Of a stretch of 64,000 nucleotides of DNA, positions 10,612-63,367 are shown in pieces. Source of the stretch: Candidatus Shapirobacteria bacterium. Its GTDB lineage: Bacteria > Patescibacteriota > Microgenomatia > UBA12405. Positions within the stretch are counted from its first letter, which is position 1, and every line of letters starts with the position of its first letter. The stretch lies in assembly GCA_028704635.1 (NCBI GenBank), contig JAQWFB010000001.1, forward strand, positions 133,541 through 197,540. The letters are read 5' to 3'. A program made the translations under genes and the position numbers. The notes beneath the pieces are model-generated. The model did no database searches. It saw nothing but the letters and a program-made list of their open reading frames with translations, and was not told the origin of the DNA.

Positions 10612-11262
10612 TTAGTTACACCCATCACCACAACAACTAATCTGGCATTTACTTAAACAATCACCACCAGCTAAACCACCTGGTAAAAGTTCTGGATAAA
10701 AACAACCACCACCAGCACAACCATCAACAGTACCACAACTACCACCCACACTACCTGCTAAACAATAACTAGTGTTACAACTTGGGTCTATATACTCATC
10801 ATACCATACAATATCTGAACTCGACACACCAAAATTAACACTGTTTGCAGTAAAACCAGTTAAAAGTATATCTGTTCTGGTATACCAATTTGTTGGGATA
10901 TCCTTATCCTTTTTATTTTTCAGATTAGTCAATACTCTAAATCTATCCTTTTTTTCCACAATTATCATATAAGGTTTTCCGTCCGGATCGCACGGCCATG
11001 GAGATAAATATGGCGAAAAAACAGCACTACCACAATTTGACATTTTATTCCAAGTACCAACATCCATTGGATAAGATCCCTTATCGTTTAAATATTCTTC
11101 AAACGCAACTTTAATTCTTTTTAAATCTTTTTTTCTCTGTGTATCCCTACCTTTATCTACTGTTCCAGTTGCATTAAAAATCCCAACCATAGCCATTACT
11201 AAAAAAATAACAATCGTCATCGCTATTAATATCTCTACTAAAGTAAAACCATTTCTTTTCAT
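10612..11262 (-). CDS. Type IV pilin-like protein with a Cys-rich C-terminus.
   Basis: Internal start MKRNGFTLVEILIAMTIVIFL. The C-terminal region is rich in Cys and Gly (..CAGGGCFYPE..CLSKCQISCCGDGCN). Confidence 0.65.
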   Translation of the reverse strand: MKRNGFTLVEILIAMTIVIFLVMAMVGIFNATGTVDKGRDTQRKKDLKRIKVAFEEYLNDKGSYPMDVGTWNKMSNCGSAVFSPYLSPWPCDPDGKPYMIIVEKKDRFRVLTNLKNKKDKDIPTNWYTRTDILLTGFTANSVNFGVSSSDIVWYDEYIDPSCNTSYCLAGSVGGSCGTVDGCAGGGCFYPELLPGGLAGGDCLSKCQISCCGDGCN

Positions 11263-12041
11263 AATTTTATTAATTCTACAACTTTTTCTCCCCACCACCA
11301 AGCCACCAAAATTCCTAAAATCATAAACGGACCGAAAGGAACTTGACTTTTTTTAGTAGCCTTTTTAAAAATCATTAATATTAATCCAACAATAGCTCCA
11401 ACAATAAAAGCCACATAAAAAGCTAAAATTGTTTTTGGACCACCCAAAAACAATCCCATAAATATAGCTAATTTTACATCACCCATCCCCATTCCATTAC
11501 CTTTAGTAATTAAATTTAAAATTAATAAAAATCCTGATGCTCCCAACGCAACAATTATATTCTGTAGGTACGCGCCATGGCGCGTACCTACCAACAAAAC
11601 CAAACCACACATTATTAATATCACCGTCGAAAAATCAGGCAAAATCATATACTTCAAATCAAACACTGCACTAAATACCAAAAATACAATAATCAAAAAA
11701 CCCAATCCAAATTGTAAGGGTGACTCTTGTGGTCGCCCTATAAAAACAGATATTAAAAATAAAAAACCCATCACTAATTCCACAACAGGGTAGGAGAGTG
11801 GTAATTTTTTATGACAGCATTTTGTTTTGCCTTTTAAAATTAACCAAGAAAAAACTGGAATATTTTCATACCATTTTAATTGCCTACCACAATAATCACA
11901 AAAACTTCTCTTTTCACCTTTTACTTTAAATTTCTTATTTTCCAATTTGTAATCCACAGCGGTTCGATACACCAACATGTTTACAAAACTCCCAAAACAC
12001 AACCCCAAAACAAAAACAATAACTCCAATTAAAATTTCCAT
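11259..12041 (-). CDS. pilD: Prepilin peptidase (A24 family, PilD-like).
   Basis: N-terminal TM, then CDYCGRQL...KCCHKKL tetra-Cys Zn motif. Multiple TM segments with GMGDVKL (Asp in a TM loop). Confidence 0.8.
   Translation of the reverse strand: MEILIGVIVFVLGLCFGSFVNMLVYRTAVDYKLENKKFKVKGEKRSFCDYCGRQLKWYENIPVFSWLILKGKTKCCHKKLPLSYPVVELVMGFLFLISVFIGRPQESPLQFGLGFLIIVFLVFSAVFDLKYMILPDFSTVILIMCGLVLLVGTRHGAYLQNIIVALGASGFLLILNLITKGNGMGMGDVKLAIFMGLFLGGPKTILAFYVAFIVGAIVGLILMIFKKATKKSQVPFGPFMILGILVAWWWGEKVVELIKL
11564..11591. repeat. 28-bp GC-rich perfect palindrome inserted in-frame in pilD (variant member of the GTAG..ACG-N10-CGT..CTAC family).
   Basis: GTAGGTACGCGCCATGGCGCGTACCTAC equals its own reverse complement. 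It encodes VGTRHGAYLQ inside a TM-rich region of PilD. Confidence 0.8.
11717..11739. repeat. REP-like hairpin (stem AGGGTGAC/GTCGCCCT, loop TCTTGTG) inside the pilD coding sequence.
   Basis: A near-identical 20-mer GACTCTTGTGGTCGCCCTAT recurs at 56680-56699 inside the transposase-like gene. Here it encodes IGRPQESPLQ. Confidence 0.7.
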
Positions 12042-12124: not shown

Positions 12125-12152
12125 CAATTAAAAACCCCGCCATCAAGCGGGG
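12125..12152 (-). terminator. Intrinsic terminator downstream of the major pilin gene. A second hairpin lies at 12092-12109.
   Basis: CCCCGC-catcaa-GCGGGG stem-loop followed by a T-run on the minus strand. An additional gtcccgat-tca-tcgggac hairpin precedes it. Confidence 0.6.
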
Positions 12153-12176
12153 TTTAATTAATCTTTTTCAAAAACT

Positions 12177-19351: not shown

Positions 19352-21325
19352 ATGATCACTCTTGATTCTCCTGAATTAAAAAATATTTCTCCCCAAAAAT
19401 TAGGCGAACTTCTAATCGAAGCCAAAAAGGCTTACTACACCGACAGTAAACCCATTATGGATGATCACACCTTCGATACTCTCGAGGATATATTGCGAAA
19501 AATTAATCCTTATCATCGAATATTTACCAAAGTTGGTACTTCCCGCTTCAACACCGGTTTTGACAAAAAAAAGCATTCCATGCCTATGGGCTCCCAAAAC
19601 AAAGTCAATAAAATCGACGATCTCATTCATTATTTTGAATTAAAAAAAATTCCCTCCGACACCGATTTTGTCGTTCAACCAAAATGTGACGGCATTTCTT
19701 TGGAAATCGAATATAAAAATGGCAAATTAGTTGATGCTATCACTCGCGGCAACGGCGAAATAGGGGATGTTATTACCCAAAATGTGGTAAAAATGAAAAA
19801 TTTTGTCAAAGAATTTAAAGATAATTTTTCCGGCTCAGTCCGCTGTGAAATCGTCATGCTTGAAAAAGATTTTCAAAAAATAATAAAAAACCGCCCTGTC
19901 AAGGGAGGTGGCCCCGCCACAGTGGGGACGGAGGGTTTTTATAGTAACTCACGCAACGCCACTTCCGGCATATCTCAAAGACTCGACGGCAAATTTTCCG
20001 AACTCTGCAGTCTCTACGCTGTCGATATTTTTTCCCACCAAAAACAATTTGTCACCGAAGTTGAAAAAATCGATTTTTTAAAACACCACGGTTTCACCCC
20101 GGTCGAAGATCTTCATTGTCAAACCTTCGATCAAATCGAAAAAATCTATCAAGAATTTTTATTTGAAAAAAGAAAAAATTATCCTTTTGAAATCGACGGC
20201 CTCGTTATTAAAATTAACGACACTCAATTAGAGCATCGTCTCGGTTCCAAAAATAATCGTCCCAAAGGTCAAGTGGCCTACAAATTTCCATCCCGCTCCA
20301 GTCAAACTAGAATTATAAATATCAATTGGCAAGTTGGTCCCATGGGAACCATTACTCCTGTCGCTGAAGTCGATCCTATTGAAATTTCCGGCGCTATCAT
20401 TACTTTTGCCTCATTGGCCAATTATGATTTGATCAAAGAAAAAAATATTAATATTGACGACATCGTTGAAATTCAAAGAAGAGGGGATGTCATCCCTCAT
20501 ATTGAAAATGTCATTACTAAAATTAAATCAGGCCACATCATTGCCCCAGAAATTTGTCCTTCTTGTGGCACCAAATTAATCATCGACAATAAATTTCTCC
20601 GCTGTCCCAATCTTAAAAATTGTCCCACTCAAATTCTAGGTTCCCTTAAATTATTTTGTAGCACTTTGGAAATCAAAGGTATTTCCGAAAAAACCATCGA
20701 CAAACTTTATCAAGTAAAATTACTTCGCCTTCCTGGTGATTTTTATGATCTAAAAGTTTCCGATTTTGAAAAACTTTTCGGTCTCGGTCATAAGTCTGGA
20801 ACCAATATTATTAATGAAATTCAAAATAAAAGAAAACTATCATTAAAACAAATTTTTGACGCCGCAATTATTCCCAATTTTAGTTCCCAACGAATTATTC
20901 AACTGATTAACGCTGGTTTCGACACTCCTGAAAAAATTTTAAATATCACCATCGATCAGCTCGAAGCACTTCCCGGAATTCAAATTACTTTGGCTCAAAA
21001 AATTTATCAGGGTATTCAGAATCGCAAGGATTTTATTCAGTCTATTCTTGTCCATGTAGAAACGCCAGATCTGGCGTCTCTACAAAAAATACCAAAAAAA
21101 TTATTTGGCTTGTCTTTCGCAATAACAGGTTCTTTAGAAAAACCCAGAAAAGAAATTGAGGATCAAATCATTTCTCTCGGTGGTCAGTTAGCCTCCTCAG
21201 TTTCCAAAAACACTGATTATTTAATCACTAACGAAACTGAAGCCAATTCCAATAAATTTTTAAACGCCAAAAAATTTGGGATCAAAATAATTTCTGAAGC
21301 CGAGTTTGAATCATTAGCAGTCTAA
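19352..21325 (+). CDS. ligA: NAD-dependent DNA ligase LigA.
   Basis: Adenylation motif KCDGISLEI (KxDG), Zn finger CPSCGTKL..CPNLKNC, HhH region, C-terminal BRCT. Confidence 0.9.
   Translation: MITLDSPELKNISPQKLGELLIEAKKAYYTDSKPIMDDHTFDTLEDILRKINPYHRIFTKVGTSRFNTGFDKKKHSMPMGSQNKVNKIDDLIHYFELKKIPSDTDFVVQPKCDGISLEIEYKNGKLVDAITRGNGEIGDVITQNVVKMKNFVKEFKDNFSGSVRCEIVMLEKDFQKIIKNRPVKGGGPATVGTEGFYSNSRNATSGISQRLDGKFSELCSLYAVDIFSHQKQFVTEVEKIDFLKHHGFTPVEDLHCQTFDQIEKIYQEFLFEKRKNYPFEIDGLVIKINDTQLEHRLGSKNNRPKGQVAYKFPSRSSQTRIININWQVGPMGTITPVAEVDPIEISGAIITFASLANYDLIKEKNINIDDIVEIQRRGDVIPHIENVITKIKSGHIIAPEICPSCGTKLIIDNKFLRCPNLKNCPTQILGSLKLFCSTLEIKGISEKTIDKLYQVKLLRLPGDFYDLKVSDFEKLFGLGHKSGTNIINEIQNKRKLSLKQIFDAAIIPNFSSQRIIQLINAGFDTPEKILNITIDQLEALPGIQITLAQKIYQGIQNRKDFIQSILVHVETPDLASLQKIPKKLFGLSFAITGSLEKPRKEIEDQIISLGGQLASSVSKNTDYLITNETEANSNKFLNAKKFGIKIISEAEFESLAV
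19891..19936 (+). repeat. GC-rich insert-like patch inside ligA. It shares the 11-mer TGTCAAGGGAG with a patch in cysS (58707-58740).
   Basis: ccgccctgtcaagggaggtggccccgccacagtggggacggaggg, in an ~33% GC gene. It encodes PVKGGGPATVGTEGF where LigA homologues are shorter. Confidence 0.4.
21055..21084. repeat. 30-bp palindrome (one mismatch) inserted in-frame in ligA; family member.
   Basis: tGTAGAAACGCCAGATCTGGCGTCTCTACa encodes VETPDLASLQ. Confidence 0.8.
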
Positions 21326-21654: not shown

Positions 21655-22188
21655 ATGAAACTAATCGTCGGTCTCGGCAATCCAGATAAACAATATCAAA
21701 ATACTCGCCATAATTTAGGTCAAAATATTGTTAAAGAATATGTAGAGACGTTTTGCAAAACGTCTCTACATATCAAACAAAACCTTTCTGCCCAAATTTT
21801 TGAAATCGGGCAAGGGAGTGATAAAACAATTTTTGCCATCCCCACTGAATATATGAACAATTCAGGAATCACTGTTCAAAAAATTTCTCAATTTTACAAA
21901 ATTTCTCCTTTAAACATTTATATTATTCATGACGACCTTGATTTAGAGGTAGGAGATTATAAAATTCAATTTGATCGTGGCCCAGCTGGACACAATGGTA
22001 TTAAATCTATCATTGAAAACCTAGGTACTCAACAATTTAATCGCATTAGAATTGGCATCGGTAAATCTCAAAATAATATCCCTGTTGAAGATTATGTCCT
22101 CCAACCATTTTCCTCCCAAGAAAAAGATATAATCAACATTTTAACCCCTGAAATATTTGAAGAAATAAAAAATATTTTGGGCCCATAG
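21655..22188 (+). CDS. pth: Peptidyl-tRNA hydrolase.
   Basis: MKLIVGLGNPDKQY..TRHNLG at the N-terminus (catalytic His), Pth length. Confidence 0.85.
   Translation: MKLIVGLGNPDKQYQNTRHNLGQNIVKEYVETFCKTSLHIKQNLSAQIFEIGQGSDKTIFAIPTEYMNNSGITVQKISQFYKISPLNIYIIHDDLDLEVGDYKIQFDRGPAGHNGIKSIIENLGTQQFNRIRIGIGKSQNNIPVEDYVLQPFSSQEKDIINILTPEIFEEIKNILGP
21738..21773. repeat. 36-bp perfect GC-rich palindrome inserted in-frame in pth; archetype of the family.
   Basis: ATATGTAGAGACGTTTTGCAAAACGTCTCTACATAT equals its own reverse complement. It encodes (Y)VETFCKTSLH(I). Confidence 0.85.
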
Positions 22189-22252
22189 TCTAGTGGTAAA
22201 ACATCTCAGTCGCACTGAGTCATCGGCGGTTCAAATCCGCCTGGGTCCACCA
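22179..22252 (+). tRNA. tRNA-Ala (anticodon CGC, tentative), CCA encoded.
   Basis: Acceptor stem GGGCCCA/TGGGTCC with a G3:U70 pair (Ala identity element). T-arm GGCGG-TTCAAAT-CCGCC. Anticodon loop GTCGCAC (U33, A37). 3' end ACCA. It overlaps the pth stop and the ATG of the next ORF. Confidence 0.7.
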
Positions 22253-30699: not shown

Positions 30700-30717
30700 T
30701 TTGTTAAAAATTAAAAA

Positions 30718-30739
30718 CCCCGCACCTGCGGGGTTTTTT
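30718..30739 (+). terminator. Rho-independent terminator.
   Basis: CCCCGC-acct-GCGGGG followed by TTTTTT. Confidence 0.75.
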
Positions 30740-36015: not shown

Positions 36016-36043
36016 GTATCGGTCAGGTATGCCTGCCCGATAC
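36016..36043 (+). terminator. Nested GC-rich hairpin immediately after the gyrA stop (terminator-like; the T-run is weak).
   Basis: GTATCGG-t-CAGG-tatg-CCTG-c-CCGATAC. Confidence 0.4.
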
Positions 36044-36243
36044 ATATTTTCTGATACTATAAGACATACACATTTAATAAGTACATATTAGCAATCAATT
36101 GTATTGATTGCTAATATACCCCATATTTTTACTTTTACCCTAATTTAGGGATAAATTTGCCATTGATTAAATCAAAAAATATCAAAACGGTGCAGGGGAG
36201 TCAAATTCCGAAATTTTGCCCTACTATAGGGTAGAGGATAATT

Positions 36244-56455: not shown

Positions 56456-56480
56456 TGTTTAATTATAACCAAAAAATCTC

Positions 56481-57092
56481 TTAAATATTTATTGGATTAT
56501 CTTTTATATATTTTTTATATATTAAATACTCTTTTTCATTTCTAATAATTCGTTCGTAATAATTTCGTTGCCACAATCGTTTATCAAATCTCGGCCAATT
56601 ATTTTGTTTTATATTTTTAATATATTCATTGGTTATTAATGATTTCAATTCACCAACAATTGTTCCTAACGTAGGGGCGACTCTTGTGGTCGCCCTATTA
56701 TTTGTTGTGCCTGCCCTTGTTTTGATTTCATCACCCACAATCATTTTGATTTCCACCCCATTATTGATTTTGTTATTCATTTCATTATTAATTTTATTAC
56801 CCATCTCATTGTTAAATTGTTTTTTAATCACCACAATCATATGAATATGATCCGGCATAATAATAAATTCATCCAATTCAATCAATTCATTTTTATTAAA
56901 ATATTCCAAAATAATTTCATTAATTAATTTTCCAATATCATTTTTTATCATTTGGGCGGGCACAAGACCCGCCCCTACATCAATTTCGCCAAAAATATTT
57001 TTTCGATTTTGACAACACACTGTTACGAAATAAAATCCATCTTTTGAATAATCAAAATTATCCATTCTAATTGATCTTCTGTGATATTTCAC
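56481..57092 (-). CDS. IS200-like / REP-associated tyrosine (Y1, HUH) transposase family protein.
   Basis: FYFVTVC...R..IF N-terminal region, HUH motif IMPDHIHMIV, C-terminal WQRNYYERIIRN (catalytic Tyr region). Low-complexity Asn-rich insert. The gene carries two GC hairpins in-frame. Confidence 0.7.
   Translation of the reverse strand: MKYHRRSIRMDNFDYSKDGFYFVTVCCQNRKNIFGEIDVGAGLVPAQMIKNDIGKLINEIILEYFNKNELIELDEFIIMPDHIHMIVVIKKQFNNEMGNKINNEMNNKINNGVEIKMIVGDEIKTRAGTTNNRATTRVAPTLGTIVGELKSLITNEYIKNIKQNNWPRFDKRLWQRNYYERIIRNEKEYLIYKKYIKDNPINI
56672..56697. repeat. REP-like hairpin (GGGCGAC/GTCGCCC stem, loop TCTTGTG) inside the transposase-like gene.
   Basis: Shares the 20-mer GACTCTTGTGGTCGCCCTAT with the pilD copy (11722-11741). 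Encodes RATTRVAP. Confidence 0.75.
56942..56962. repeat. REP-like hairpin (GGGCGGG/CCCGCCC stem, loop CACAAGA) inside the transposase-like gene, inverted relative to 56672-56697.
   Basis: Perfect 7-bp stem. Same loop as the other family members on the opposite strand. Encodes GAGLVPAQ. Confidence 0.7.
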
Positions 57093-57142
57093 ACATTAAT
57101 ATTACCATGTGTACGGGAGGGTCTTATGCCCGGCCCTTATAT

Positions 57143-57170
57143 CATCAAAAAACCCCGCCAATGCGGGGTT
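57143..57170 (-). terminator. Intrinsic terminator of the rpsF-ssb-rpsR operon (hairpin flanked by T-runs on both sides).
   Basis: CCCCGC-caat-GCGGGG with an A-run and T-run on both sides. Confidence 0.7.
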
Positions 57171-57222
57171 TAATTTTTTTAAAAACCAAGTCCCTCTTGT
57201 CAAAGAGGGATTTAGGGAGATT

Positions 57223-60409: not shown

Positions 60410-60895
60410 CTAAGTGATTTTACCCTTATATTCAGAAGTTTGCGACATTTGAGTATGGTCCGGTTGTTGTGTTTTTCTTTTATTTCCACCTTTATCTTTA
60501 TGATGTTTCGATGGTTGCATTAATTCAAGATTAACCATTTGATCTTGTCTTTCCATCTCCTTTTGTCTTTTTAAATTTTCCAATTCAATATTTCCTTTTT
60601 CTTCATCTTCTTTTTCTTTTTGGTGTCTTATTTTTTCCATTTCATTTTCCACCGATCTACCCGCTTGCCCGCCGAAGCCTTGGCGTAGGCGGGACATTTC
60701 TTCTTGTTTTTTCTTTTCATCTTCTCCTTTTTTTTGGGCTAATTCTTCATCACTCAATGGTTTAATATCTCCCAAAAGCTCTTTTGCTGTAATTACTGAT
60801 TCAGCGATTTTACCTGTTTCTTCCACTAACTTTTCCACCGTTTCCTGTCCTAATTGTTTAAACCCTTTTTTAAAATCATTTATAACCTGATTCAT
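60410..60895 (-). CDS. Hypothetical charged/coiled-coil protein.
   Basis: Lys/Glu-rich low-complexity protein. Contains a GC-rich hairpin patch (60668-60693). Confidence 0.4.
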   Translation of the reverse strand: MNQVINDFKKGFKQLGQETVEKLVEETGKIAESVITAKELLGDIKPLSDEELAQKKGEDEKKKQEEMSRLRQGFGGQAGRSVENEMEKIRHQKEKEDEEKGNIELENLKRQKEMERQDQMVNLELMQPSKHHKDKGGNKRKTQQPDHTQMSQTSEYKGKIT

Positions 60896-61798: not shown

Positions 61799-63367
61799 TT
61801 ATCCAAATATTTCTTTTGCTACATCATAAATATCTCCACCACCCGCCTTATCATCTTTATTTTCCGACAACTGATCACTCACATGTTCCATCGGCGTATC
61901 ATTTTTAATTACCAACGGTTGTTTTTTATTTTTTGCTAAAACACATTCAAACCCTAAATTCACTCCAAAAACCTTCGAAATTCCCTCTTCCACTATTTTT
62001 CTATTTTTACTTTCTTCTAATCGATCTTTGTGAAACGGATAAAAAACTTCCAATAATAAAATATTTCCTTTGACAGATTTGGGTCTAGTTGCTCTCAAAA
62101 ATGCTTCAACCGCATAATTAAAAGGCTTTACTGCGGTCAACAAATTCCCCCATTTCCCCTCAATCGTTTCTATTTCTAAAGAACAAATGTTTTGTGAATC
62201 TTGTAGAGACGCATCATGATGCGTCTCTACCTTAGTAATAATAATTTTTTCCTCAATTTTTGTTTCATTTACAATCTGCTCCGCAGATTCTTCTATTTCC
62301 TCATTTTTTTTTACCCCACTTCTTTTAGTCTCTCCAAACTCCACCACTGCCAATTCCATTGGTAATTGATCAATTTCTACATCTTTCTCAATTTTTGATG
62401 CCTTTATTAAAAGATTCATAAAAAACTCAGATTCTTCTAGATTTAACCCATTCTTCTTTGCAGAATTTGTAGAAATGCCATAAAATGCCAAAATTTTCTT
62501 TTGGAAAAAATTCATTAATTTCAACCTAAAACTGGAAAAATCCACTCCATCATCTGCCATCTTTTCCAACTTTTCCAAAATTAATTTTATTTCCCCATTA
62601 TTTAAATCCTTATCAAAATCTTCCTCATTATAATTACCACTTTTATCCAAATAAAATTTAAAAACATCCTCTGTTTTCAACTTCTTCCCCAATTGTAAAT
62701 ATAATTCATTAAAGTTTCTTTGCAGATTTCTAAAACTTCCGTCACTTTTTTCCACAATAAAATCAATTGCCTCTTTAGCAATTTCAATCCCCTCACCCTC
62801 AATTATTTTTTTAAGTGAACTTATTAATTCATTTCTTCCACCCTTTCTAAAATCAACTCTCACTAATCTCGATAAAACCGTATCTGGAATTTTTTCAGCA
62901 TCAGTCGTACATAAAACAAAAATTGTGTGTTTTGGTGGTTCTTCAATCAATTTTAGCAAGGCATTAAACGCATCTTTAGTTAACATATGCACTTCATCAA
63001 TAATAAAAACTTTTTTATTCAATTTACTTGGTAGTAAATACGCTTTATCTTTTAGACTTCTTATATCTTCAATTCCCCTGTTTGATGCCGCATCCATTTC
63101 AATCACATCCATTGCTCCGCCCTTAATTATTTCTTTACAATTATCACATTCTTCACAAGGTTCACCATTTTTTAAGTCAGTACAATTAACCGCCCTGGCT
63201 AAAATCCTAGCTGCTGACGTTTTTCCTGCCCCTTTAGGCCCAGAAAATAAAAACGATTGAGGAACATCTTTTGCCGACAAATATTTTTTCAAGCTCTCAG
63301 CCACATCAGCCAAATCCAAATCAGAAAATTTAACTGGTCTATATTTTAAGTGAAAAACTGACATCAA
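61799..63367 (-). CDS. dnaX: DNA polymerase III subunit gamma/tau.
   Basis: Walker A GPKGAGKTSAARILA, Zn module CxxC..C..C, SRC-type sensor, divergent C-terminal domain. Confidence 0.9.
   Translation of the reverse strand: MMSVFHLKYRPVKFSDLDLADVAESLKKYLSAKDVPQSFLFSGPKGAGKTSAARILARAVNCTDLKNGEPCEECDNCKEIIKGGAMDVIEMDAASNRGIEDIRSLKDKAYLLPSKLNKKVFIIDEVHMLTKDAFNALLKLIEEPPKHTIFVLCTTDAEKIPDTVLSRLVRVDFRKGGRNELISSLKKIIEGEGIEIAKEAIDFIVEKSDGSFRNLQRNFNELYLQLGKKLKTEDVFKFYLDKSGNYNEEDFDKDLNNGEIKLILEKLEKMADDGVDFSSFRLKLMNFFQKKILAFYGISTNSAKKNGLNLEESEFFMNLLIKASKIEKDVEIDQLPMELAVVEFGETKRSGVKKNEEIEESAEQIVNETKIEEKIIITKVETHHDASLQDSQNICSLEIETIEGKWGNLLTAVKPFNYAVEAFLRATRPKSVKGNILLLEVFYPFHKDRLEESKNRKIVEEGISKVFGVNLGFECVLAKNKKQPLVIKNDTPMEHVSDQLSENKDDKAGGGDIYDVAKEIFG
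62203..62230. repeat. 28-bp perfect palindrome inserted in-frame in dnaX; family member.
   Basis: GTAGAGACGCATCATGATGCGTCTCTAC encodes VETHHDASL(Q). Confidence 0.85.

What the first reader, a model, noticed from the sequence alone, without database searches (positions are those of the whole stretch)
21738..21773. Family of GC-rich perfect palindromes inserted in-frame, in the same frame, into four unrelated essential genes
Four copies of a 28-36 bp perfect (or one-mismatch) palindrome share the same arms but have different palindromic cores. The copies are pth 21738-21773 (ATATGTAGAGACG-TTTTGCAAAA-CGTCTCTACATAT), ligA 21055-21084 (GTAGAAACG-CCAGATCTGG-CGTCTCTAC), dnaX 62203-62230 (GTAGAGACG-CATCATGATG-CGTCTCTAC) and pilD 11564-11591 (GTAGGTACG-CGCCATGGCG-CGTACCTAC).

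All lie inside coding sequence in an ~33% GC genome, and all are read in the same frame, starting at the G of GTAG. They give peptides V-E/G-T-x4-S/Y-L-Q/H: VETFCKTSLH, VETPDLASLQ, VETHHDASLQ, VGTRHGAYLQ. These peptides fall where homologues of Pth, LigA, DnaX and PilD have no corresponding residues.

Conserved arms with covarying, still-palindromic centres point to selection for a hairpin or cruciform rather than for the peptide. This is the signature of a small structured mobile or recombinogenic element that lands in-frame, analogous to the in-frame Rickettsia palindromic elements. The +1 frame is excluded because GTAG carries a TAG stop. Three of the four copies contain GAGACG/CGTCTC, a type IIS restriction recognition sequence, which may be coincidental. 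Four copies in 64 kb implies hundreds genome-wide if this window is typical.
Basis: partly seen in the sequence, partly recalled or inferred. Interest (0 to 1): 0.88.

Follow-up and report, generated by a model that had tools for sequence, protein, structure and literature searches.

The report
REP hairpins inside essential genes
The four GC-rich palindromes are copies of an already described kind of tiny bacterial repeat (a "double-foot" REP hairpin) whose dedicated transposase gene lies in the same window; here they are tolerated in frame inside genes of a gene-dense CPR bacterium, which makes this a clear example but not a new kind of element.

Summary
In detail: four 28-bp GC-rich palindromes (GTAG-5nt-palindromic 10-mer-5nt-CTAC) lie in frame in pilD, ligA, pth and dnaX of a Candidatus Shapirobacteria (CPR) genome, with 0 expected by chance. 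They are not a new element class. They match the "double-foot" REP sequences (5' GT[AG]G, 3' C[TC]AC) described for TnpA_REP/RAYT subclass 2.4 (Bertels group 4) by Quentin et al. 2018. Intragenic in-frame REPs, many of them in replication and repair genes, were reported by Di Nocera et al. 2013. It carries two in-frame "canonical long" REPs and has a degraded one at its 5' flank, and a near-identical canonical REP sits in pilD. The same arms occur in at least 120 loci across many phyla. The exact dnaX 28-mer occurs at 47 distinct sites in metagenomes, often inside or flanking RAYT genes. Stem positions covary, and loop positions vary freely. The claim that homologues have no corresponding residues holds only for dnaX (+9 codons); pth is length-neutral, pilD +1 aa and ligA +2 to +4 aa. 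The shared reading frame is not significant. Verdict: new member of a known kind, of modest interest.

The parts
21738..21773 (.). Double-foot REP in pth. The 28-bp core unit is 21742-21769 (GTAGAGACG-TTTTGCAAAA-CGTCTCTAC), and the perfect palindrome extends to 36 bp. It is read as VETFCKTSLH.
   Evidence: The orthologous slot in relatives holds intact, compensated or decayed copies.
21056..21083 (.). Double-foot REP in the ligA HhH-BRCT linker (site C), with one arm mismatch. It is read as VETPDLASLQ.
   Evidence: The identical perfect 28-mer is at the same slot in L121 and L180, and at a different LigA site in L123.
62203..62230 (.). Double-foot REP in the variable linker of dnaX, read as VETHHDASLQ. 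It is a net +27 nt insertion relative to hairpin-free relatives.
   Evidence: The exact 28-mer occurs at 47 distinct sites in metagenomes.
11564..11591 (.). Double-foot REP with variant arms (GTAGGTACG...CGTACCTAC) in pilD, read as VGTRHGAYLQ.
   Evidence: The L121 orthologue has compensated arms GTAGGCACG...CGTGCCTAC.
11714..11739 (+). Slightly degraded 'canonical long' REP (GTAAGGGTGACTCTTGTGGTCGCCCT) in pilD, read on the gene strand as GRPQESPLQ. It matches the RAYT-internal REP at 24 of 26 positions.
56481..57092 (-). RAYT / TnpA_REP gene (203 aa, HUH-Y1 transposase, subclass 2.4-like). Motifs: PDHIH, LWQRNYYE, YIKDNP.
   Evidence: Pfam Y1_Tnp 30.5 bits against a cutoff of 23; NCBIfam REP_Tyr_transpos E=1e-17. 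(1341 homologues, some named RayT). (the only PDB hit is 4ER8 TnpA_REP).
56954..56978 (-). Canonical long REP (gtagGGGCGGGtcttgtgCCCGCCC) in frame inside the RAYT gene, sense orientation, read as VGAGLVPAQ.
56671..56695 (+). [quoted passage not shown]
57111..57136 (+). Degraded canonical REP (GTACGGGAGGGTCTTATGCCCGGCCC) immediately upstream of the RAYT start codon.
56470..57152 (-). 676-bp RAYT cassette bounded by a 7-nt direct repeat (CAAAAAA on the + strand at 56470-56476 and 57146-57152). It is absent from the same rpsR-downstream intergenic site in relatives L126 and L127.
19890..19937 (+). Possible REP-derived GC-rich in-frame insert in ligA (site A). It is absent in L122 and L124, and L123 holds a double-foot REP at this site. 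The assignment is uncertain.

Best explanation
The palindromes are 'double-foot' REP sequences, that is, GC-rich hairpins with a 5' GT[AG]G foot and its complement C[TC]AC at the 3' end. They belong to the REP family that travels with subclass 2.4 (Bertels group 4) REP-associated tyrosine transposases (RAYT / TnpA_REP). A RAYT of this clade is encoded in the window and carries REPs in frame inside its own gene. By analogy with characterised TnpA_REP and IS200/IS605 enzymes, the hairpin forms on single-stranded DNA. The HUH-Y1 enzyme recognises the GTAG foot and the stem, then cleaves and strand-transfers at the foot, which gives rise to new copies. In this gene-dense, AT-rich CPR genome the copies that persist are those that landed in an open frame (frames 1 and 3 have no stop) in tolerant loops or linkers, so they are translated as 9-10 residue peptides. 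The stem is kept paired by compensated changes and the 4-nt loop drifts. Shown here: the sequence family, its wide distribution, its physical association with RAYT genes, presence/absence and decay between relatives, identical units at non-orthologous sites, and covariation. Inferred: catalysis by this RAYT, the single-stranded DNA intermediate, and retention of the peptide in the proteins.
For: Four copies against 0 expected. The same arms occur in at least 120 loci from Bacteroidota, Nostocales, Anaerolineae, Acidobacteria and other phyla, against about 9 chance matches (my estimate from collection size and pattern length). Across 128 copies there are 73 distinct cores, and each core pair is Watson-Crick in 84-97% with 3-4 pair types. 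A RAYT is in the window, with two in-frame canonical REPs, one flanking REP, and a near-identical copy in pilD. Clade-HMM RAYT genes lie at 0-44 bp from the hairpin in 6 of 120 genome loci. They occur in 6-7 of 50 metagenome loci, including loci where the identical 28-mer flanks the RAYT ORF on both sides (L177, L140). The exact dnaX 28-mer is found in 47 distinct flank contexts, in hosts of 27-60% GC. The same 28-mers occur at different LigA sites in related genomes. Empty and filled sites exist: dnaX +27 nt, LigA site A +39-45 nt and site B +21 nt. Orthologous copies differ by compensated stem changes, while the two central bases vary freely. [quoted passage not shown] Di Nocera 2013 documents intragenic REPs, many in DNA synthesis and repair genes. 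Bertels 2017 describes group 4 as low copy and scattered over many classes.
Against: There is no biochemical or expression evidence. In this window the REPs inside and beside the RAYT are the GGGCG canonical type, whereas the four reported copies have AGACG or GTACG arms, so the cognate relation in this genome is indirect. It rests on other genomes where the same RAYT clade contains or is flanked by AGACG double-foot REPs. NCBIfam REP_Tyr_transpos scores 64 bits, below its cutoff of 80, because the match is split by the insert. Simple insertion does not explain the length-neutral pth slot or the near-neutral pilD and ligA slots. L121 carries hairpins, and L127, which shares a 127,739-bp contig with it and is probably the same genome, lacks the RAYT at the rpsR locus. 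Whether a RAYT lies elsewhere in that genome is unknown.
Confidence: 0.82

Rival explanations
1. The hairpins are host cis-elements selected in place, for example mRNA structures that pause ribosomes or stabilise transcripts, or DNA structures acting in replication. They would arise by point mutation at fixed slots rather than by transposition.
For: The pth slot is length-neutral against all homologues and is occupied in many Shapirobacteria. The stem is maintained by compensated changes in an AT-rich genome. The pilD and ligA slots are nearly length-neutral.
Against: Identical 28-mers occur at 47 unrelated sites and in hosts of 27-60% GC. There is a clean +27 nt insertion in dnaX. Close relatives show presence, absence or decay at the same slots. 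Copies in other phyla are mostly intergenic. There is a tight physical link to RAYT genes.
Confidence: 0.08
2. They are binding or recognition sites for a dimeric DNA-binding protein or a restriction-modification system (a Type IIS CGTCTC site, a parS-like site, or a DNA-uptake signal).
For: They are perfect dyad symmetries with conserved outer arms. Three of the four contain GAGACG/CGTCTC. The window encodes type IV pilus genes.
Against: The inner 10-mer covaries to stay paired, which a two-half-site protein would not require. The central two bases vary freely, like a loop. CGTCTC is neither avoided nor enriched outside the hairpins. The pilD and GGGCG-arm copies lack the site. Single arms are not enriched.
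Confidence: 0.03
3. They are intervening sequences removed from RNA or protein (intron-like or intein-like), so the host proteins are not altered.
For: They lie in essential genes, and the hairpin structure could mark a processing site.
Against: In Pth the encoded residues occupy positions present in all homologues, so removal would delete part of the fold. A unit of 28-30 nt is far below the size of any known self-splicing element. 28 is not a multiple of 3. Copies are always in an open frame. Decayed copies remain in frame.
Confidence: 0.02
4. It is a chance occurrence, or an assembly or chimera artefact.
For: None beyond the metagenomic origin of the sequence.
Against: Zero copies are expected in shuffles. 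The same copies appear at orthologous slots in independent assemblies from ENA, JGI, NCBI and Logan.
Confidence: 0.005

Closest known systems
Double-foot and canonical long REP sequences of TnpA_REP subclass 2.4 (Quentin, Siguier, Chandler, Fichant 2018, PMC6006769), equivalent to RAYT group 4 of Bertels et al. 2017 (PMC5581495)
   Same: 5' GT[AG]G with 3' C[TC]AC at the ends of a long GC-rich stem. A second REP type has three G-C pairs at the stem base. REPs are inserted in frame inside the tnpA_REP gene between HuH and Y. The transposase has WQ and YIxNNP-type motifs and is about 200 aa. It is scattered over many phyla at low copy number (searches compared).
   Different: The host is a CPR (Patescibacteria) bacterium, a phylum whose name does not occur in the text of that paper. 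The window enzyme has DHIH and YIKDNP where the subclass consensus has N. Here most copies in the window lie inside unrelated housekeeping genes rather than in intergenic DNA.
Intragenic GTAG- and CGTC-tagged REPs (Di Nocera, De Gregorio, Rocco 2013, PMC3733652)
   Same: Short tagged palindromes lie inside known genes without breaking the frame, and many are in DNA synthesis and repair genes. They are thought to be tolerated in linkers and loops. ligA and dnaX fit that pattern.
   Different: The arm sequence GTAGAG does not occur in the text of that paper. Its families have an unpaired tag at one end, whereas here the tag is mirrored at both ends.
E. coli REP/BIME with TnpA_REP (structure 4ER8; Ton-Hoang 2012, Messing 2012, Corneloup 2021)
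   Same: A HUH-Y1 enzyme recognises a GTAG foot plus a hairpin on single-stranded DNA. The window RAYT aligns to 4ER8 at the HuH and WQ...YxxxNP motifs. Corneloup 2021 describes a second group of enzymes that act on perfect palindromes.
   Different: The sequence relationship is distant (E = 0.0036). E. coli REPs are imperfect, bulged, extragenic and number in the hundreds. No activity has been shown for subclass 2.4 enzymes in what I read.
Rickettsia palindromic elements (RPE)
   Same: Palindromic repeats inserted in frame into unrelated genes of a reduced genome. Di Nocera 2013 equates RPE-4 and RPE-6 with CGTC REPs.
   Different: Classical RPE-1 elements are about 100-150 bp (from my own knowledge) and have no associated transposase. 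The copies here are 28-36 bp, GTAG-footed and RAYT-associated.
IS200/IS605 family (IS608, ISDra2) subterminal hairpins
   Same: A Y1 HUH transposase acts on hairpins in single-stranded DNA, with a guide tetranucleotide 5' of the hairpin foot (background).
   Different: Those hairpins are the ends of a roughly 1-2 kb element that carries its own transposase. Here the hairpin alone is the repeated unit.

Membership tests
REP sequences, double-foot type (subclass 2.4) | 5' GT[AG]G tetranucleotide at the foot of the hairpin | tested here: met
   All four copies start with GTAG.
REP sequences, double-foot type (subclass 2.4) | Reverse complement C[TC]AC at the 3' end | tested here: met
   All four copies end in CTAC. 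The definition is quoted.
REP sequences, double-foot type (subclass 2.4) | GC-rich stem-loop of about 20-40 nt that is stable as a single strand | tested here: met
   The stem is 12-16 bp with a 4-nt loop, at -10 to -15 kcal/mol and z <= -6.5. Stem pairs covary and loop bases vary freely.
REP sequences, double-foot type (subclass 2.4) | Repeated and dispersed in the genome | tested here: inconclusive
   There are 4 double-foot and 4 canonical copies in 64 kb against 0 expected. The rest of the genome could not be scanned.
REP sequences, double-foot type (subclass 2.4) | Physical association with a RAYT/TnpA_REP gene (flanking it or inside it) | tested here: met
   The window RAYT carries 2 internal and 1 flanking canonical REP. 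AGACG double-foot copies lie inside or flanking RAYT genes of the same clade in L012, L013, L035, L054, L071, L078 and in L137, L140, L154, L168, L177.
REP sequences (classical definition) | Extragenic location | tested here: not met
   All copies in the window are inside ORFs, except the degraded one at 57111-57136. Intragenic exceptions are documented.
RAYT / TnpA_REP subclass 2.4 | HuH motif (consensus NH[IFV]H) | tested here: met
   The window protein has MPDHIHMIV. The HuH is intact with D in place of N, and most clade members have MPNH[IFV]H.
RAYT / TnpA_REP subclass 2.4 | WQ motif and catalytic Y motif YIxNNP | tested here: met
   The window protein has LWQRNYYERIIRN and YIKDNP, with D in place of N at one position. 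These align to 4ER8 WQPRFWEHAIRN...YIYINP.
RAYT / TnpA_REP subclass 2.4 | Variable insert between HuH and Y made of in-frame REP sequences | tested here: met
   The REP at 56671-56695 is read as RATTRVAPT. Homologues carry VGAGLVPA...RATTRVAPT, VGVDRCVDP and VETHGRASLQ at the same place.
RAYT / TnpA_REP subclass 2.4 | Curated profile thresholds | tested here: inconclusive
   Pfam Y1_Tnp scores 30.5 bits, above its gathering cutoff of 23. NCBIfam REP_Tyr_transpos has E=1e-17 but scores 64 bits, below its cutoff of 80, with the match split in two by the insert.
RAYT / TnpA_REP subclass 2.4 | Cleavage and strand transfer of the cognate REP single-stranded DNA | not testable with these tools
   This needs an in vitro assay.
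Rickettsia palindromic elements | Element of about 100-150 bp with conserved RPE consensus, in Rickettsia, with no transposase | tested here: not met
   The units are 28-36 bp, in a CPR host, with a RAYT present.
Type IIS restriction-modification target | Recognition site avoided or otherwise anomalous elsewhere in the genome, and the site present in all copies | tested here: not met
   CGTCTC occurs 9 times outside the hairpins against about 7 expected. It is absent from the pilD copy.
Self-splicing intron / intein | Size and conserved catalytic features; host sequence complete without the insert | tested here: not met
   The unit is 28-30 nt. There is no Rfam match in the window apart from three tRNAs. 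The Pth residues encoded by the hairpin align to residues present in all homologues.

The most novel reading that the evidence does not exclude
At fixed in-frame slots of essential proteins (Pth, LigA, PilD) the resident REP is repeatedly overwritten or homogenised, either by RAYT-mediated hairpin-for-hairpin exchange at the GTAG/CTAC feet or by hairpin-templated correction. This would explain the length-neutral slots, the switches between AGACG-arm and GGGCG-arm units at one slot, and the recurrence of identical 28-mers at different slots. It would be a replacement mode not described for Y1 transposases, and a source of rapidly changing 9-10 residue cassettes in core CPR proteins.
Probability: 0.15. 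Interest if true: 0.6.

Novelty: new member of a known kind. Interest (0 to 1): 0.3.

Why it matters
It extends the subclass 2.4 RAYT / double-foot REP system to the Candidate Phyla Radiation, for which I found no report in the searchable library. It shows what happens when a REP family lives in a genome with almost no intergenic space: the surviving copies are in-frame peptides in the loops and linkers of housekeeping proteins. The set of filled, empty, compensated and decayed orthologous slots (dnaX, three ligA sites, pilD, pth), together with a RAYT cassette that is itself present or absent between relatives, is usable material for studying REP gain, maintenance and loss, which are still poorly understood. 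Practically, it warns annotators that VET....SLQ, RDA....VST, VGAGLVPA and RATTRVAPT-type segments in proteins are repeat-derived.

Tried and rejected
- A literature search for the arm strings GTAGAGACG and CGTCTCTAC returned only primers and cloning sites.
- Rfam at gathering thresholds found only three tRNAs in the window.
- PilD had no usable solved homologue.
- The Type IIS idea was rejected.
- A search for 2-bp or other target duplications at the hairpins found none. The dnaX empty site already contains GT[AG]G, so the insertion boundaries are ambiguous. Flanks show only a preference for T at position -1 and A at +1, about 50% each.
- The palindrome at 36016-36043 was considered as a degraded copy and rejected. 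It is intergenic, 13 bp after the gyrA stop and followed by a T-rich run, so it is probably a terminator.
- The GC island at 60649-60695 was considered and rejected as ordinary conserved coding sequence.
- Selection on the peptide itself was rejected. Both open frames are used, and most copies in other phyla are intergenic.
Full report
**Observation.** The four sequences are in the window exactly as described. A degenerate search for GTAGRKACG-N10-CGTMYCTAC with up to two mismatches returns only these four sites and none in 100 dinucleotide-preserving shuffles. The pth copy is a perfect 36-bp palindrome. Each lies inside a long ORF: PilD 11259-12041 (-), LigA 19352-21325 (+), Pth 21655-22188 (+), DnaX 61799-63367 (-). 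They are translated as VGTRHGAYLQ, VETPDLASLQ, VETFCKTSLH and VETHHDASLQ. As single-stranded DNA each folds into a 12-16 bp stem with a 4-nt loop, at -10 to -15 kcal/mol with z-scores of -6.5 to -9.5. The arm GTAGAGACG is not enriched on its own. The host DNA is 30-37% GC. The closest proteins are named Candidatus Shapirobacteria, a CPR lineage.

**The family is very widespread.** I estimate about 9 chance matches from the size of the collection and an 18-base pattern. The loci come from Bacteroidota, Nostocales and other cyanobacteria, Anaerolineae, Acidobacteria, Ignavibacteria, Planctomycetes, Zixibacteria and others. The scan did not constrain the inner 10-mer. Even so, 88 of 128 copies have a perfectly palindromic core and 118 have at least 4 of 5 core pairs. 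There are 73 different cores, and each pair position is Watson-Crick in 84-97% of copies with three or four pair types. That is strong covariation for a hairpin. In those phyla most copies are intergenic or at ORF edges. Twenty-three copies lie deep inside long ORFs, 13 in frame 1 (VET...SL) and 10 in frame 3 (RDA...VST).

**A transposase is in the window.** A motif search for HUH...Y-x3-NP found an ORF at 56481-57092 (-).
- It passes Pfam Y1_Tnp (30.5 bits against 23).
- It matches NCBIfam 'REP-associated tyrosine transposase' at E=1e-17, although at 64 bits it is below the curated 80 because an insert splits the match.
- Its only PDB relative is E. coli TnpA_REP, 4ER8, aligned at the HuH and WQ...YxxxNP motifs.
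- It has 1341 database relatives in CPR, Omnitrophota, Chloroflexi, Zixibacteria and Bipolaricaulota, some of them named RayT.

The gene itself contains two more GTAG-footed hairpins of a second type: gtagGGGCGGGtcttgtgCCCGCCC on the sense strand and gtagGGGCGACtcttgtgGTCGCCC on the antisense strand. They have the same foot and loop, and their stems covary. A degraded third copy abuts the start codon, and a 24/26-identical copy lies in pilD, read as GRPQESPLQ. Across homologues, the region after the HuH motif is a hypervariable string of in-frame hairpin translations such as VGAGLVPA...RATTRVAPT, VGVDRCVDP and VGAPLVGAQ.

**Association between hairpin and transposase.** An HMM built from this RAYT clade finds six RAYT genes in the 120 genome loci (852 kb). 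In all six the AGACG double-foot hairpin is inside the gene or within 44 bp of it. The exact dnaX 28-mer occurs 54 times in metagenome contigs, in 47 distinct flank contexts and in hosts of 27-60% GC. Six or seven of the 50 loci carry a RAYT of the clade. These include L177 and L140, where the identical 28-mer flanks the RAYT ORF on both sides, and L137 and L168, where it sits after the HuH motif. I estimate that well under one RAYT gene would be expected in this much DNA if the two were unlinked. That estimate rests on the published roughly single-copy state of RAYTs (abstracts).

**Identification with the literature.** Quentin et al. 2018 describe TnpA_REP subclass 2.4 (Bertels group 4). [quoted passage not shown] It has two REP types. 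The 'canonical long' type has three G-C pairs at the stem base. [quoted passage not shown] The paper notes that REPs are inserted within the tnpA_REP genes between HuH and Y without disrupting the frame. Every one of these features is seen here. Di Nocera et al. [quoted passage not shown] Bertels et al. 2017 report group 4 in 17 bacterial classes, associated with only low-copy 16-mers. The finding is therefore a member of a known system. I found no paper linking RAYT or REPIN to Patescibacteria or CPR, and the word Patescibacteria does not occur in the text of Quentin et al..

**Insertion or replacement.**
- **Pth.** It aligns to solved structures with at most a one-residue gap across the slot. 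The top 120 relatives listed are 170-192 aa, with no length variation at the slot apart from one 4-residue extension just after it (P0028) and two small gaps (P0030, P0101).
- **LigA.** The slot aligns gap-free to E. coli LigA and is +2 to +4 aa relative to hairpin-free relatives.
- **PilD.** It is +1 aa overall. An alignment anchored on a shared GAATATAAT instead gives +5 aa at the hairpin and a 4-aa deletion just downstream. This suggests insertion followed by compensating deletion, which is inference.
- **DnaX.** This is a genuine insertion. The empty sites read AAG GTA GAT TCA (L125) or AAG GTG GAT TCA (L127). The filled site reads AAG GTA GAG ACG CAT CAT GAT GCG TCT CTA CAA GAT TCA, a net +27 nt. 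The empty site already contains GT[AG]G, and there is no clean duplication.
- **Other true insertions in relatives.** LigA site A is +39-45 nt in three genomes, each with a different GC-rich unit. LigA site B is +21 nt in L123 and is read in frame 3. Site B is hit again by the dnaX 28-mer in four metagenome loci.

**Turnover and maintenance.** At the pth slot, 36 of 120 relatives encode VETxxxxSL and 16 encode V[RGQ]AxxxxP[LF], the GGGCG-arm units. The rest look decayed. Residue 4 and residue 7 covary as base pairing predicts, 16/17 and 9/11. At DNA level, genes 87-89% identical carry GTAGAGACG-TTTTGCAAAA-, -CATTGTAATG-, -CATTATAATG- or -TTTTACAAAA-CGTCTCTA(C/A). The two outer core pairs change together (TT..AA to CA..TG), while the two central bases take GC, GT, AT or AC, as expected for a loop. 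More distant relatives show progressive decay toward AT (L121, L124, L122) or a GGGCG-arm unit (L123). The pilD copy has compensated arm changes between orthologues (GGTACG/CGTACC against GGCACG/CGTGCC). The same 28-mers recur at different slots in related genomes. The CCAGATCTGG unit is at LigA site C in the window, L121 and L180, but at site A in L123. The CATCATGATG unit is in dnaX here and at LigA site C in L123. L122 and L124 have no copies in the same 20-kb syntenic block.

**The RAYT gene is itself variable.** In L126 and L127 the rpsR terminator is followed directly by the next gene (GGGGTTTTTTG|GTTATAAT). The window has a 676-bp cassette at exactly that point, consisting of a degraded REP, the RAYT ORF and a short tail, bounded by a 7-nt direct repeat.

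**Frame and restriction-site claims.** Frame 2 of every unit starts with TAG. Frame 3 is open for the pth, ligA and pilD units but closed by TGA in the dnaX unit. Four out of four in frame 1 therefore has a probability of about 1/8. The RAYT-internal antisense REP in this window uses the other register (RATTRVAPT). CGTCTC occurs 14 times in the window, 5 of them in hairpins, against 7.1 expected overall. The site is therefore not avoided, and the pilD unit lacks it.

**Mechanism, with its status.**
- *Shown:* this is a covarying single-strand hairpin family with a GTAG/CTAC double foot. It is physically linked to one RAYT clade, polymorphic between relatives, and present as identical units at many unrelated sites.
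- *From established knowledge:* TnpA_REP and IS200/IS605 Y1 enzymes act on hairpins in single-stranded DNA. They use the tetranucleotide at the foot and cleave and join at the hairpin base (background).
- *Inferred:* the window RAYT, or a recent relative, generated these copies. Only in-frame copies in tolerant segments survive in a genome with little intergenic space. Stems are kept paired through enzyme recognition, through hairpin-templated correction, or both.
- *Unexplained:* how the length-neutral slots arose (pth exactly, ligA-C and pilD nearly), and whether unit switches at one slot are replacements or compensated drift.

**Verdict.** The element is a new member, in a new host phylum, of a known kind.

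Noticed in passing
window 12132-12155, 30713-30738, 57150-57171; also L121 1179-1200 and 18610-18635, L122 1052-1073 and 19075-19100, L124 1182-1207: A recurring intergenic hairpin AAACCCCGC-loop-GCGGGGTTT(T) sits at gene ends. It looks like a lineage-typical intrinsic terminator with a nearly fixed stem sequence.
   Followed up: partly
window 36016-36043 and 36085-36117: Downstream of the gyrA stop (36003) there is a 28-bp imperfect palindrome GTATCGGTCAGGTATGCCTGCCCGATAC followed by a T-rich run, probably a terminator. About 40 bp further on there is a perfect 15-nt AT-rich inverted repeat ATATTAGCAATCAAT/ATTGATTGCTAATAT, which looks like an operator.
   Followed up: partly
window 19890-19937 (ligA site A); window 57188-57213; L123 7238-7258, 7285-7305, 7794-7814: There may be a second family of small hairpins built on CCCT(C)TT-loop-AAG(A)GGG. 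One lies inside the ligA GC-rich insert (CCCTGTCAAGGG). One lies after rpsR (present in the window and L126, absent in L127). Identical copies TCTCCCCTTGTTAAGGGGAGA flank a DUF559 gene in L123.
   Followed up: no
Pth relatives P0056, P0067, P0098, P0106, P0045: Extra length-increasing GC-rich inserts occur in a later loop of Pth (NSRDAIHGVS, GAGLPAGR, CRGEP). These look like further REP-derived in-frame insertions at a second pth site.
   Followed up: no
L140 1-1027: Three copies of the dnaX 28-mer lie within 1 kb around and inside a RAYT ORF. Nearby are tandem partial duplications of REP halves (HAGVETHAGVETHVGVETHHDASL and QQHASLPQQHASLPQQHASLP), which suggests local slippage or nested insertion at REPs.
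   Followed up: no
window 22179-22249: A tRNA gene begins inside the last codons of pth (pth ends at 22188), so the pth stop and the tRNA overlap by about 10 nt. This illustrates how little intergenic space the genome has.
   Followed up: no
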